Shown here: piece by piece, positions 35,317-38,599 of the stretch
How positions within the stretch are numbered: position 1 is the first letter of the stretch
Layout of the letters: each line of letters begins with the position of its first letter
Assembly (NCBI GenBank): GCA_900553945.1
Contig: USFR01000004.1
Location: 60,161 to 124,160 of the forward strand
DNA length: 64,000 bases
Source: an uncultured Clostridium sp.
Lineage (GTDB): Bacteria; Bacillota; Clostridia; TANB77; CAG-508
Direction of reading: 5' to 3'
Translations under genes and position numbers: made by a program
The notes under the pieces: model-generated
What the model saw: only the letters and a program-made list of their open reading frames with translations
Database searches by the model: none
Told to the model about the DNA's origin: nothing

Positions 35317-36114
35317 ATGGAAGAAAGAAGAGTTAAGGAAAAAGAGATTATAAAGCCTGCTTTGAGAATTATTAAAGATAAACCGGGAATAAACACATCA
35401 GAGTTAATTAAAGAACTTCAAAAAATAGTTGAATTATATCCTGGAGATAAAGAAATTTTAAGTGGAAGAACTGATACTAAATTTTCTCAAATTGTTAGAA
35501 ACTTAATTTCACATAGAGAAAATAATAAATTTGGAAAATGCATTTATAGTCAGCAAGTTGGAAGAAATGTAGGCTTTTATATTAATGAAAAAGGGCAAGA
35601 AGAAATTCAAGGATATGAGAGAAGAGAAATAAGAGAAGAACGTGAAGACAATGAACTACAAAGAAGAATAAGAGAAAGTAGTTTATATAATGATAAGACT
35701 GAATTGAAAAAAGCAAATTCAAGAGTTCCTGAAAAAACTTCTAGAAGTAACAATGCAAGATATAAAACTGATGCAAGAATTTCAAAAACAGTTCTAAATG
35801 AAAACAATTATATATGTGAAATTGAAAAAATAACTGAAAATATTCATAGAACGTTTAATACTAATAATGAAGTACAGTATATGGAGGGACATCATCTAAT
35901 TCCTATGAAAGCACAAAAAGATTTTATAAATAATATAGATAGAAGCGATAATATTTGTTGCTTATGTCCTAATTGCCATAGAGCTATACATTATGGAACA
36001 GTTAAAGAGAAAAAAAGTAGATTAATATTATTGTATAAAGAGAAGATTGAAAAATTAAAAGCAAATGACATATATATAGATTTTGAAGAATTAGTAAACA
36101 AATATTATTTGTAG
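35317..36114 (+). CDS. HNH endonuclease domain protein
   Basis: C-terminal HHLIPMK...CCLCPNCHRAIHYG (HNH with zinc-finger Cys). The N-terminal ~130 aa is of unknown function, with an R/E-rich linker. Confidence 0.7.
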   Translation: MEERRVKEKEIIKPALRIIKDKPGINTSELIKELQKIVELYPGDKEILSGRTDTKFSQIVRNLISHRENNKFGKCIYSQQVGRNVGFYINEKGQEEIQGYERREIREEREDNELQRRIRESSLYNDKTELKKANSRVPEKTSRSNNARYKTDARISKTVLNENNYICEIEKITENIHRTFNTNNEVQYMEGHHLIPMKAQKDFINNIDRSDNICCLCPNCHRAIHYGTVKEKKSRLILLYKEKIEKLKANDIYIDFEELVNKYYL

Positions 36115-36121
36115 AATTAAG

Positions 36122-36928
36122 GTGATTATTATGGATAAAATTGAAGAATTGAGAAAACAATTCTATAATTTTTTTGACAATGGATATGATTTTGAAAATT
36201 TTTTAAAAGAATTTTTAAAAGATTTAGGCTTTAAAGATATAAAAGTAACACAAAAGACTCGAGATGGTGGAATTGATTTAGTATGTTATAAAGATATAAT
36301 TGAAGGAATTAATACAATAGAAAGTGAAAAATTTATTGTGCAAGCAAAAAAATATGATAAAAATATATCACCAGAAAAAGTAAGAGCATTAAATGATGCC
36401 AGAAATGTAGGAATTAGAAAGTTATTTATAACGACAAGTGATTTTTCGCAACAGGCTAAAATAGAAGCTAAAGAAATGCCAGATATGTCTTTAATAAATG
36501 GAAAAGATATTATTAATTTTTATATTCAGAATAAATCCGACAAAATATTTGATTGGGAGCCTAAACTTTCAAATGATAAATTATATGAATTAATAACAAA
36601 GAATAAAAAGGATACTGGAAATAATCAAGAAAGTATGGAAAAAAATGAAGAAAAAATATTAAGAGTAATAACTAAAAATGATGTAAGGGCAAGAATATTA
36701 AGAATACCTAATGAAATCTTTGCAAAGATTTCTGAAGAAAATGCTTATGATGTTGTTATAGATGGTTGTGAAAAAAGACTTAATATGATTAAAGAAATAA
36801 AGTCTTTTGCAGGAATAAGTGAATTTTATAGGAAACATAATTATATAGATAATGAACAAGCAGCTAGAAATAGTTATTGGAGTATAGATATAAGTAAGAA
36901 AAAAATATATGTAGAACTAGAAGAATAA
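36122..36928 (+). CDS. Mrr_cat-like restriction endonuclease domain protein
   Basis: DGGIDLVCY...FIVQAKKY (D...(Q/E)xK PD-(D/E)xK-type motif). Extra ~130-aa C-terminal region. Confidence 0.55.
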   Translation: MIIMDKIEELRKQFYNFFDNGYDFENFLKEFLKDLGFKDIKVTQKTRDGGIDLVCYKDIIEGINTIESEKFIVQAKKYDKNISPEKVRALNDARNVGIRKLFITTSDFSQQAKIEAKEMPDMSLINGKDIINFYIQNKSDKIFDWEPKLSNDKLYELITKNKKDTGNNQESMEKNEEKILRVITKNDVRARILRIPNEIFAKISEENAYDVVIDGCEKRLNMIKEIKSFAGISEFYRKHNYIDNEQAARNSYWSIDISKKKIYVELEE

Positions 36929-37117
36929 AAAATTAAGCTAAATAACAATAAATGTATTATTAAAGTATTTATAAATTAAATTTAATAAATAGTAATCTTG
37001 CAATTTGCCTCAAAACTAAAGCTTAATATTTGTTATGCAAAAAAAGTTGAATAAATTGCAGTTTTATGTTATATTATTATATGCAATAATTACCACTTAG
37101 TTTCGGGGGAAAAGAAT

Positions 37118-38008
37118 ATGGAAAGAAATGTGTATAAATATAATATAGAAGTTAATGTGATAGACATACCAAGTAGACCAATACGAATTGAAGTTAATGA
37201 TGAAATAGAGAATGTTTTAGATTTTTTAAGTGCCCTACCTAGAGAGGAAAGAAGAGTAGATCTTTCTACCCAAGAAAAAGTTATATATTTAGAAGAATAT
37301 GTAAAAACAGAAATTAATAATATGACGATCTATTTTTTTAAATTTGTATCTTTGAAGTATAATCAAACAAGAGAGGTACTAAATAAAGATACTTTAGAAA
37401 GTAAAGGAAGATTAAAAGATGTAAATGATGGGGATAAGGAATATAATCATATTGCTATAGGAGTAAAAAATGGAAGAATTAAAGCTGCATTTGAATATAA
37501 TTATTATGGAATACAAGGACTAGGAACTATTATTTCCTATATAAATGATATGGCGACAAAATATTTTAAAGAAATAGGAATAGATAAATATTATTATTTA
37601 GAAGCGCATAATGAGGTAAACAGAGAATTTTTAGAAGAACTAAACAAAATGAGACAAATTAATGCTGCAACTATTGTAGTAGCATCTGAAAGATTTGGAA
37701 ATACTGAGTTTGGAGATTTGTCGGGAAGAGAAGAAATTAAGGACGAAATAGAAATAACATTTAAAAGAGCTAAAAGAAGATATATTCCTAAAGCAATTAT
37801 AGAGGAATATTATAATAAAAAACAGAATGGTGATGCTATTAAAAGAATTTATGTTAGTGGAAGAAATGAAACTAATAAGATAAAATTAGATACAGAGGAA
37901 ATGAAGCAGAAAGTTAAATTATCAGTATCTGCTAATATATTTGGAGAAATAGACTCAGATAATATGTTTGAGCAATTAAAAAATTATTTAATGGAGGAAA
38001 ATGGTTGA
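37118..38008 (+). CDS. hypothetical protein
   Basis: 296-aa ORF with GGGGGAAAAG-type RBS. Overlaps the next gene (ATGA). Confidence 0.45.
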   Translation: MERNVYKYNIEVNVIDIPSRPIRIEVNDEIENVLDFLSALPREERRVDLSTQEKVIYLEEYVKTEINNMTIYFFKFVSLKYNQTREVLNKDTLESKGRLKDVNDGDKEYNHIAIGVKNGRIKAAFEYNYYGIQGLGTIISYINDMATKYFKEIGIDKYYYLEAHNEVNREFLEELNKMRQINAATIVVASERFGNTEFGDLSGREEIKDEIEITFKRAKRRYIPKAIIEEYYNKKQNGDAIKRIYVSGRNETNKIKLDTEEMKQKVKLSVSANIFGEIDSDNMFEQLKNYLMEENG

Positions 38009-38553
38009 AAAATAAGTTTTTAAATTCGGAGATATTATTGCCTTTTTTAGATTATTTTAAAATAGAAGAAAAGAAAGAAAAAAAAATTAAATTAATAATA
38101 TATATATTATTATCAATGGTGATATGTACAGGAATGCTATTTTATTATAAAATTTTTGCTCAAGAAGAGATTAAAGATTTTGTATTGGAGTATATAAATT
38201 CAGAGATTGAAATTATTGCGCTATTATTGAGTTTTAGCATAGCATATTTGACGATTCTTATAACATCCGATAGTAAAAATATAAGAGAACTTAAAGAATA
38301 TAATACAAATAAAATTATTGATAAAAAAAATATATCGTTATATCAAATTTTATTGATACAGCTTACTTATACAATATATAATGAAATAGTTTTATTGATT
38401 TTATTACTAATACATAAATTTATTTTTCCAATAACAAAGGAATTTTGGAATATTATATTTTTTACTATAAATATGATTCTTTTGATAAATATTATTTATG
38501 TTATGTTTAAAAATGTAAAAAATATTTACTTGTCTTTCTGGAGAAGTAATTAA
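38005..38553 (+). CDS. polytopic membrane protein (approx. 4 TM)
   Basis: Hydrophobic segments throughout. Followed by a perfect 14-bp-stem hairpin at 38556-38596. Confidence 0.45.
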   Translation: MKNKFLNSEILLPFLDYFKIEEKKEKKIKLIIYILLSMVICTGMLFYYKIFAQEEIKDFVLEYINSEIEIIALLLSFSIAYLTILITSDSKNIRELKEYNTNKIIDKKNISLYQILLIQLTYTIYNEIVLLILLLIHKFIFPITKEFWNIIFFTINMILLINIIYVMFKNVKNIYLSFWRSN

Positions 38554-38599
38554 GTGTTGGAATTATGAAAAATAAAAATTCATAATTCCAACTTTATTT

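What the first reader, a model, noticed from the sequence alone, without database searches (positions are those of the whole stretch)
35317..38596. HNH nuclease + Mrr_cat-like nuclease followed by a soluble/membrane gene pair
Two adjacent nuclease-domain proteins are separated by an 8-nt gap. The first has HNH with unknown N-terminal and R/E-rich linker regions. The second has a PD-(D/E)xK Mrr-type core plus an extra C-terminal domain. They may form a modification-dependent (type IV-like) restriction unit beside the Dam-family R-M pair. The downstream 296-aa protein overlaps a 4-TM protein (ATGA). That is an Abi-like soluble-sensor plus membrane-effector arrangement with no recognisable motifs.
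Basis: inference. Interest (0 to 1): 0.55.

Follow-up and report, generated by a model that had tools for sequence, protein, structure and literature searches.

The report
RexAB-like abortive-infection pair beside restriction nucleases
The flagged stretch holds two separate phage-defence modules: the last two genes of a four-gene restriction operon, and a two-gene unit that looks like a very distant, Clostridia-type relative of phage lambda's classic RexA/RexB "suicide" system, which standard annotation tools miss.

Summary
All four genes exist as described, with small corrections. The interval is two independent units, not one.

(1) 35317-36928 is the 3' half of a tightly packed four-gene operon: D12 methyltransferase, TdeIII-type endonuclease, HNH protein, Mrr-type protein. 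The HNH protein has a McrA-like HNH domain and an unidentified N-terminal domain. The second nuclease has an intact Mrr-type PD-(D/E)xK core (D45/D49, Q71-x-K73). Its "extra" C-terminal domain is a B3-like DNA-binding pseudobarrel, as in EcoRII, BfiI and NgoAVII. Its homologues occur without the HNH gene, so an obligate HNH+Mrr unit is not supported.

Verdict: a RexAB-type abortive-infection module, a new member of a known kind. All function is inferred.

The parts
33354..34487 (+). D12-class (Dam-family) N6-adenine DNA methyltransferase; first gene of the four-gene operon (context for the finding)
   Evidence: Pfam MethyltransfD12 2.3e-37; PADLOC MTase_II 1.9e-65. There is an 8-nt gap to the next gene.
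34496..35305 (+). TdeIII-family type II restriction endonuclease; second gene of the operon (context)
   Evidence: Pfam RE_TdeIII 6.7e-43. There is an 11-nt gap to the HNH gene.
35317..36114 (+). HNH nuclease, 265 aa. N-terminal ~95 aa unidentified (weak Mrr_N-like hint), then an R/E-rich linker, then a McrA-like HNH domain at residues ~140-240
   Evidence: Pfam HNH_2 7.8e-5 and HNH 2.1e-4; Mrr_N 0.011, below threshold. PADLOC mREase_IV PDLC03656 2.9e-11. PDB E. coli McrA 6ghc 5.1e-10, residues 101-240 aligned to McrA 154-279. H192-H193 and the C214-C215-x-C217-x-x-C220-H221 block are present.
36131..36928 (+). Two-domain nuclease, 265 aa: an N-terminal Mrr-type PD-(D/E)xK domain plus a C-terminal B3-like DNA-binding pseudobarrel
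37047..37075 (+). Candidate promoter (TTGAAT-17 nt-TATATT with an upstream TG) inside the 189-nt AT-rich spacer 36929-37117 that separates the two modules
   Evidence: Consensus scan. Promoter-like sites are not above chance in this AT-rich region (39 found, 37 expected), so this is only a candidate. The spacer itself is read directly.
37118..38008 (+). RexA-like soluble protein, 296 aa (split globular domain plus four-stranded dimerisation-type domain)
38005..38553 (+). RexB-like small membrane protein, 182 aa, four hydrophobic segments (about 30-46, 70-86, 128-144, 150-166); TTG start overlapping the upstream stop (TTGA)
   Evidence: Hydropathy. phrog_4613 2e-14. RexB is the only PADLOC family touched by its relatives: 5 of 17 reach E<=1, and three reach E about 0.005 with full-length colinear matches. 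It lies directly downstream of the RexA-like gene in 11 of 11 loci.
38556..38592 (+). Intrinsic-terminator-like hairpin (14-bp stem, 9-nt loop) followed by a T-rich tract; ends the two-gene unit
   Evidence: RNA fold -17 kcal/mol, z = -5.3 against 200 shuffles. The consensus scan missed it because the stem has few G-C pairs.

Best explanation
The interval contains two unrelated defence modules lying side by side in a chromosomal defence island. The island continues into a type I-B CRISPR-Cas locus.

Module 1 (33354-36928) is one operon: Dam-class methyltransferase, TdeIII-type endonuclease, HNH nuclease, Mrr-type nuclease.
- The HNH protein carries a McrA-type HNH cleavage domain behind an unidentified N-terminal domain.
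- The Mrr-type protein is built like a type IIS/IIE enzyme. It joins a non-specific PD-(D/E)xK cleavage domain to a B3-like domain that (inferred) reads a DNA site.
- Whether methylation of that site blocks or licenses cutting is unresolved.

Module 2 (37118-38553, with its own spacer and terminator) is a RexAB-type abortive-infection system.
- The 296-aa protein has the RexA/RdgC fold. By inference it acts as a dimeric DNA-binding sensor of infection.
- The translationally coupled 182-aa four-helix membrane protein is, by inference, the effector. On activation it would permeabilise or depolarise the membrane and so stop growth of the infected cell.

Shown here: gene structure, folds, catalytic motifs, and conserved pairing across phages, mobile elements and chromosomes.
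Inferred: DNA binding, the A-B interaction, the membrane effect and phage exclusion.
For: Module boundaries:
- Gaps of 8, 11 and 16 nt link the four operon genes. A 189-nt spacer then precedes the RexA-like gene. A 4-nt overlap joins the pair, and a hairpin follows it.
- The four-gene operon recurs without the pair, next to a relaxase, in L037.
- The pair recurs without the nucleases in L008, L009, L022, L024, L029, L039 and L041 and in four phage types.

RexA-like protein:
- The predicted secondary structure gives a 7-strand N-terminal domain, then a 4-strand/4-helix middle domain, then a C-terminal helix. This matches the published RexA layout.
- hhalign of the family against a small RexA alignment is colinear over 183 columns, E 3.9e-4, probability 35%.
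- The Jekyll homologue is deposited as 'RexA-like'. The depositors used HHpred among their annotation tools.

RexB-like protein:
- It has 4 hydrophobic segments, as RexB does.
- RexB is the only PADLOC hit, and three relatives align end to end with the profile.
- A shared TM2-loop motif is seen: LTILITSxxxNIxxLKEY against RexB LTFLIGSRTRRLAKIREY.

Co-evolution: identities of the two proteins co-vary from 68/68% down to 26/28%.

Cargo positions in phages: the pair lies between a sigma-like or antirepressor gene and the terminase genes in two phages, and after the lysis genes in Jekyll.

Nucleases.
Against: - No sequence method places the window's own proteins in the lambda Rex families. Pfam RexA/RexB and PADLOC RexA/RexB do not hit them, while lambda controls score 1e-108 and 9e-61.
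- The hhalign probabilities are low (35% and 11%). The RexB profile hits (E about 0.005) come from mutually related hydrophobic sequences and could be compositional.
- Foldseek against viral models ranks RdgC-like proteins but not RexA. The fold alone therefore does not separate RexA from RdgC.
- The pair here is not in a prophage next to an immunity repressor, as the lambda genes are.
- No experiment exists for any family member.
- For the nucleases, neither target nor modification dependence can be read from sequence.
Confidence: 0.65

Rival explanations
1. One reading: the HNH and Mrr-type proteins work together as one modification-dependent (type IV) restriction unit that attacks foreign modified DNA.
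For: - The genes are adjacent with a 16-nt gap and are co-conserved in L037/L038 at 82-89% identity.
- The HNH domain matches McrA and the PADLOC type IV model.
- The PD-(D/E)xK domain is closest to the modification-dependent enzymes AspBHI and MspJI.
- Stand-alone copies of the Mrr-type gene have no adjacent methyltransferase. That fits type IV.
Against: - Mrr-type homologues occur without any HNH gene at 85% and at 43% identity.
- Co-occurrence is seen only in close relatives that share the whole four-gene block, so it is not independent evidence.
- McrA's N-terminal modified-cytosine-binding domain is not matched.
- The reader domain of the Mrr-type protein is B3-like, not an SRA, PUA or winged-helix methyl reader. 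Characterised B3-like domains of restriction enzymes read unmodified sites (PMC3973309 and PMC5766183, listed; established knowledge).
Confidence: 0.2
2. The Mrr/B3 protein is a conventional sequence-specific endonuclease, of type IIS/IIE-like build. It shares the protective methylation laid down by the neighbouring Dam-class methyltransferase, possibly at GATC. That would make the operon one methyltransferase guarding against two or three nucleases.
For: - The B3-like domain resembles those of EcoRII, BfiI, NgoAVII and UbaLAI.
- In two unrelated contexts the gene sits in an operon with a D12 methyltransferase: in this window, and inside a DpnII cassette in L013-L016.
- GATC is the most depleted 4-bp palindrome in the window (57 observed, 126.5 expected, ratio 0.45). 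GANTC and GGNCC are not depleted.
Against: - Copies at 85% identity stand alone between a peptide deformylase gene and cas3 or a helicase gene, with no methyltransferase nearby. That would be lethal unless a methyltransferase lies elsewhere in the genome.
- The specificity of the methyltransferase is unknown.
- The GATC depletion is measured on only 64 kb and could have other causes.
Confidence: 0.35
3. The 296-aa protein is an RdgC-like recombination or replication accessory protein, and the membrane protein merely anchors or regulates it. On this reading the pair is not an anti-phage system.
Against: - It has no Pfam RdgC hit.
- It is coupled to a four-segment membrane protein in 11 of 11 loci.
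- In phages it lies in cargo slots beside terminase or lysis genes, not in replication or recombination modules.
- In chromosomes it lies next to restriction, CRISPR, DndB-like and integrase genes.
- RexA scores higher than RdgC.
Confidence: 0.1

Closest known systems
Phage lambda RexA/RexB exclusion system (Pfam PF15969/PF15968; PDB 8TWQ) and the RexAB-type systems of actinophages (Sbash, CarolAnn, Toast) and Pseudomonas putida prophage P1
   Same: - Two genes in the order soluble protein then membrane protein, tightly coupled.
- A small partner with four transmembrane segments.
- Carried by temperate phages as cargo.
   Different: - No significant sequence similarity to the lambda proteins.
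- The membrane protein is 182 aa against 144 aa. It has a conserved ~25-aa N-terminal extension and a longer TM2-TM3 loop.
- Here it sits in a chromosomal defence island rather than next to a cI-type repressor.
- The host range is Clostridia and their phages.
- No experimental data exist.
E. coli RdgC (PDB 2OWL)
   Different: No RdgC Pfam match, a different genomic setting, and an obligatory membrane partner.
PADLOC candidate system PDC-M53 (untested candidate)
   Same: Distant members of the 296-aa family hit the PDC-M53A models: 11 of 46 for one model, best E 6e-9 for another.
   Different: The window protein and its phage relatives do not hit it. The one match inspected covers only the N-terminal ~110 residues. 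In the library searched, the one paper holding the term mentions it once, in an unrelated Salmonella comparative-genomics study.
E. coli McrA (type IV, PDB 6GHC)
   Same: HNH domain with a His-His pair and a Cys-rich metal site; E 5e-10 over ~130 residues.
   Different: The N-terminal DNA-reading domain is unrelated. Target modification is unknown.
B3-domain restriction enzymes (EcoRII, BfiI, UbaLAI, NgoAVII/CglI) and Mrr/MspJI-type nucleases
   Same: A modular build: a cleavage domain plus a B3-like pseudobarrel reader. The cleavage domain has the Mrr-type D...QxK motif.
   Different: None of the best-matching solved B3 enzymes (EcoRII, BfiI, UbaLAI, NgoAVII, LlaJI.R1) is built as an N-terminal Mrr_cat plus a C-terminal B3. 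From established knowledge: BfiI uses a phospholipase-D nuclease, EcoRII and UbaLAI have B3 at the N-terminus, and Mrr itself has an N-terminal winged helix.

Membership tests
RexAB-type abortive-infection systems | Soluble component with the RexA fold (split globular domain plus four-stranded dimerisation domain) | tested here: met
RexAB-type abortive-infection systems | Small membrane partner with four transmembrane segments, encoded immediately downstream | tested here: met
   Four hydrophobic segments in the window protein and in 9 homologues, as in lambda RexB. Adjacent on the same strand in 11 of 11 loci.
Lambda Rex sequence families (Pfam RexA PF15969 / RexB PF15968; PADLOC RexA/RexB) | Significant profile match of the soluble protein to RexA | tested here: not met
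   No Pfam or PADLOC RexA hit for the window protein or for 46 family members. The lambda control scores 1e-108. hhalign probability is 35%.
Lambda Rex sequence families (Pfam RexA PF15969 / RexB PF15968; PADLOC RexA/RexB) | Significant profile match of the membrane protein to RexB | tested here: inconclusive
   The window protein has no hit. Three relatives hit PADLOC RexB at E about 0.005 over the full length, and one hits Pfam RexB at 0.07. hhalign probability is 11%.
RexAB-type abortive-infection systems | Prophage location beside the immunity repressor | tested here: not met
   In the window the pair lies between a restriction operon and cas6. In phages it lies next to terminase or lysis genes. 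Published actinophage and P. putida examples also depart from this arrangement.
RexAB-type abortive-infection systems | DNA binding and dimerisation of A; A-dependent activation of B; membrane depolarisation; phage exclusion | not testable with these tools
   Needs EMSA, a two-hybrid assay, membrane-potential dyes and plaque assays.
Type IV McrA-like HNH enzymes | HNH beta-beta-alpha-metal motif retained | tested here: met
   Pfam HNH/HNH_2; alignment to 6ghc with HH, N and H positions and the CxxC block.
Type IV McrA-like HNH enzymes | McrA N-terminal modified-cytosine-binding domain | tested here: not met
   Only residues 101-240 align to McrA 154-279. The N-terminal 103 residues have no PDB match, and only a sub-threshold Mrr_N hint at 0.011.
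Mrr family (type IV) | Mrr_cat PD-(D/E)xK core with catalytic D ... (Q/E)xK | tested here: met
   Mrr_cat 5e-24. D45, D49 and Q71-A72-K73 are invariant in 39 sequences.
Mrr family (type IV) | N-terminal Mrr_N winged-helix reader domain | tested here: not met
   The nuclease domain is N-terminal and the second domain is B3-like.
B3-domain restriction endonucleases | DNA-binding pseudobarrel (B3-like) domain | tested here: met
B3-domain restriction endonucleases | Cognate protective methyltransferase | tested here: inconclusive
   A D12 methyltransferase is in the same operon in the window, in L037 and in L013-16. None is adjacent in L017-21.
PADLOC PDC-S02 (single-gene candidate) | Full-length match to the model | tested here: not met
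   Only the nuclease domain (residues 6-145) matches, and it aligns to the C-terminal part of the model, positions 174-311 of 324.

The most novel reading that the evidence does not exclude
The 296-aa/182-aa pair may represent a large Gram-positive branch of a single ancient superfamily. The branch has at least 437 clusters at 50% identity. The superfamily would be defined by an 'RdgC-fold DNA sensor plus four-helix membrane effector' design. It would also include lambda Rex, the actinophage and Pseudomonas Rex-type systems and the untested candidate PDC-M53.

If so, Rex would be the prototype of a widespread defence class that current detectors largely miss. It would also be available in experimentally tractable gut Clostridia phage-host pairs (Anaerostipes, Roseburia, C. 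difficile).

A secondary possibility is that the Mrr/B3 nuclease is a new restriction architecture whose B3 domain reads the methylation state of a Dam-type site.
Probability: 0.4. Interest if true: 0.6.

Novelty: new member of a known kind. Interest (0 to 1): 0.45.

Why it matters
Rex is the oldest known abortive-infection system, and how it senses infection and acts on the membrane is still unresolved. A sequence-divergent branch gives independent material for working out which features are essential. This branch is common in Clostridia and in phages of Anaerostipes, Roseburia and C. difficile.

It also shows that Pfam, NCBIfam and PADLOC leave such systems unannotated in gut anaerobes.

The Mrr-type nuclease with a B3-like reader adds a domain combination not seen among the solved restriction-enzyme structures it matched here. 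That is of modest interest for enzyme discovery.

Tried and rejected
- Pfam, NCBIfam and PADLOC scans of the 296-aa and 182-aa proteins found nothing.
- A profile search of PDB sequences with the 46-member family alignment gave no significant hit.
- hhalign of the families against single lambda RexA or RexB sequences was not significant. Against 4-sequence alignments it was only suggestive.
- The AlphaFold-database Foldseek library was unavailable.
- The pattern-based locus scans were weak:
  - The genome scan returned one locus.
  - The first viral scan failed for lack of conserved stretches.
  - The next viral scan returned one locus.
  - Two scans with single distant members returned none.
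- A metagenome scan with the HNH protein returned only two near-identical loci.
- The N-terminal domain of the HNH protein had no PDB sequence match.
- The promoter scan is uninformative in this AT-rich DNA, with 39 sites found against 37 expected.
- An Rfam scan of 35000-39500 found no RNA family.
- Cluster look-ups gave no organism or product name beyond 'Clostridia bacterium, hypothetical protein'.
- I considered and rejected the idea that all four genes form one system. The two halves occur separately elsewhere.
- I considered DpnI-like m6A dependence for the Mrr-type protein and found no support. It has no sequence match to DpnI in the PDB. A homologue also sits inside a GATC-methylating DpnII cassette.
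Full report
**Observation.** The window is low-GC DNA (about 22-35% over the island). All genes from about 24 kb to 49 kb lie on the + strand. The four ORFs of the finding are real:
- an HNH protein, 35317-36114 (265 aa);
- an Mrr_cat protein, listed from GTG 36122;
- a 296-aa protein, 37118-38008;
- a 182-aa hydrophobic protein, 38005-38553.

Two details need correction.
- The Mrr-type gene starts at ATG 36131, not at the GTG. The GTG lies inside the ribosome-binding sequence AAGGTGA. Gene calls on related contigs and 38 homologues all begin at the ATG. 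The gap to the HNH gene is therefore 16 nt.
- The last gene starts with TTG, giving a TTGA overlap, not ATGA. The nearby ATG is out of frame. A conserved N-terminal motif in homologues requires the TTG start.

**Two modules, not one.**
- The D12 methyltransferase (33354-34487), the TdeIII-type endonuclease (34496-35305), the HNH gene and the Mrr-type gene are separated by 8, 11 and 16 nt. They form one operon.
- A 189-nt AT-rich spacer follows. Then come the 296-aa and 182-aa genes with a 4-nt overlap. A strong hairpin with a T-tract closes the unit (-17 kcal/mol, z -5.3).
- The four-gene operon recurs at 82-89% identity next to a relaxase, followed by an unrelated membrane protein and without the pair (L037).
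- The pair recurs without any of the nucleases in many settings:
  - next to an integrase (L008, L024);
  - next to a DndB-like/methyltransferase pair (L009);
  - next to polysaccharide-synthesis genes (L029);
  - in a Clostridia MAG (L022);
  - on a Monoglobus plasmid (L041);
  - in a viral contig (L039);
  - in phages of Anaerostipes, C. difficile and Roseburia.

**The HNH protein.**
- Pfam HNH and HNH_2 score just above threshold.
- The C-terminal half (residues 101-240) aligns to the HNH domain of E. coli McrA (6ghc, E 5e-10). It also matches a 277-position PADLOC type IV model.
- The His-His pair (192-193) and the CCxCxxCH block (214-221) are present.
- The first ~100 residues have only a sub-threshold Mrr_N hint (E 0.011) and no PDB sequence match. 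Its target cannot be inferred.
- On plasmids the same HNH domain is joined to various other N-terminal domains.

**The Mrr-type protein.**
- Mrr_cat matches at 5e-24.
- In an alignment of 39 full-length homologues down to 29% identity, D45, G47, D49 and Q71-A72-K73 are invariant. So is a C-terminal motif, N183-D184-x-R186-A187-R188-I189...P193. The nuclease motifs are therefore not lost on alignment.
- The AlphaFold model (pLDDT 83.9) has two domains joined by a disordered linker.
- By established knowledge (PMC3973309 and PMC5766183, listed), those restriction-enzyme B3 domains read specific unmodified sequences.
- Contexts are mixed:
  - at 85% identity the gene stands alone beside cas3 or a helicase;
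  - at 43% identity it sits inside a DpnII cassette, between the second methyltransferase and the DpnII endonuclease.
- The protein is therefore not obligately paired with the HNH gene. It coexists with Dam-type methylation.
- GATC is the most depleted 4-bp palindrome in the window (ratio 0.45). GANTC and GGNCC are not depleted. This suggests GATC-directed restriction in this lineage but does not prove it.
- Whether the enzyme is blocked by methylation (type II-like) or needs a foreign modification (type IV) remains open.

**The 296-aa protein.**
- It has no Pfam, NCBIfam or PADLOC match. It does match phrog_4672.
- A word-indexed search found 21 relatives.
- A full profile search found 437 clusters at 50% identity with E<=1e-3. 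Most listed hits are about 290-300 aa and match over nearly the full length.
- None of 46 diverse members hits a meaningful Pfam family. Eleven hit one model of the untested PADLOC candidate PDC-M53A.
- The RexA structure paper names RdgC, IML3 and CHL4 as RexA's structural relatives. It describes a split seven-stranded globular domain interrupted by a four-stranded, four-helix dimerisation domain (PMC11077077).
- The model shows the same order. Seven strands and helices occupy residues 2-153. Four strands and four helices occupy 159-249. Two short strands (254-258, 265-269) and a long C-terminal helix (280-295) follow.
- Foldseek against viral models finds uncharacterised ~280-320-aa phage proteins first. 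Phage RdgC-like proteins follow.
- hhalign against a four-sequence RexA alignment is colinear but weak (probability 35%).
- Independently, the Roseburia phage Jekyll homologue is deposited as 'RexA-like protein'. It belongs to this family (hhalign probability 100%). Its authors annotated with RAST, HHpred and Phagonaute.

**The 182-aa protein.**
- It and nine homologues each have four hydrophobic segments, like lambda RexB.
- Among 5027 PADLOC models, the only one touched by its 17-member family is RexB. Five members reach E<=1. Three of them reach E about 0.005 and align from profile position 3-4 to 137-139 of 141.
- One member touches Pfam RexB at E 0.07.
- hhalign picks out a shared motif at the end of TM2.
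- These signals are individually weak and come from related hydrophobic sequences. They are, however, independent of the fold evidence for the neighbouring gene.

**Linkage.** In 11 distinct loci the two genes are adjacent, co-directional and nearly touching. Their identities to the window proteins fall together, from 68/68% to 26/28%. In phages the pair sits in cargo positions:
- between a sigma-like regulator or antirepressor and the terminase genes in Anaerostipes phage AC844P2 and C. difficile phage phiCDKH02;
- after holin and endolysin at the end of the Jekyll genome record.

**Mechanism (inferred).** By analogy with lambda Rex and the P. putida system, the soluble protein would be a dimeric, non-specific DNA-binding sensor. 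The membrane protein would oligomerise into a channel or pore that collapses membrane energetics and aborts infection. None of these steps is shown here.

**Comparison and novelty.** The pair works like RexAB and shares its fold and architecture. It fails sequence-family membership. It also differs in having an N-terminal extension and a longer loop in the membrane protein, in its host range, and in its genomic position. One family member already carries a 'RexA-like' label in GenBank. Full-text searches of the held library turned up no paper describing a Rex-type system in Clostridia. They turned up no characterisation of PDC-M53. I rate it a new member of a known kind, of moderate interest. 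The Mrr_cat-plus-B3 nuclease is a domain combination absent from the best-matching solved structures and is a minor addition.

**Surroundings.** A complete type I-B cas operon (39351-47512) and a CRISPR array (47704-48260) follow the pair. This confirms that the region is a defence island.

Noticed in passing
window 31006-32961: Three co-directional genes: a 357-aa protein with no family, a 121-aa DUF4325 (STAS-like, 3e-10) protein that overlaps it, and a 178-aa protein with an N-terminal hydrophobic segment. The trio lies just upstream of the restriction operon and is conserved with it in related contigs. It may be a further defence module. From my reading of the sequence only, the 357-aa protein has GHKL-ATPase-like motifs; this was not tested.
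   Followed up: partly
window 29340-30727: A HIT-family protein (2.4e-6) whose stop overlaps the start of a 298-aa protein with no detectable family. Both lie at the upstream edge of the island.
   Followed up: no
window 38600-38893 (- strand): A ~97-aa reading frame interrupted by a single in-frame TGA, between the RexB-like gene and cas6. The same 34-aa stub is called in all related contigs, so the interruption is not a sequencing error peculiar to this window.
   Followed up: partly
window 47704-48260 and about 48543: A CRISPR array of about 9-10 copies of the 30-nt repeat GTATTAATTTAAATATATTAGAATGTAAAT, with 65-67-nt spacing, after cas2. A degenerate extra repeat lies about 300 nt further on.
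   Followed up: partly
L013-L016, 3333-6719: A 43%-identical homologue of the Mrr/B3 nuclease is inserted inside a DpnII-type cassette: D12 methyltransferase, N6_N4 methyltransferase, Mrr/B3, DpnII endonuclease. It overlaps the end of the second methyltransferase gene.
   Followed up: partly
whole window: GATC is the most under-represented 4-bp palindrome (57 observed, 126.5 expected, ratio 0.45). CATG (0.68) and GGCC (0.64) are also low. GANTC and GGNCC are at expectation. This hints that the Dam-class restriction system targets GATC.
   Followed up: partly
L040 (Roseburia phage Jekyll LR596902) 4001-5475: The deposited annotation 'RexA-like protein' (VUE37338.1) belongs to the same family as the window's 296-aa protein. 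The adjacent 'hypothetical protein' (VUE37337.1) is the membrane partner (29% identity). The preprint version of the associated paper (the version held) does not mention Rex.
   Followed up: yes
L037 5641-6363: In the mobilisable-element copy of the four-gene restriction operon, the position taken by the RexAB-like pair in the window is occupied by an unrelated 240-aa membrane protein.
   Followed up: no
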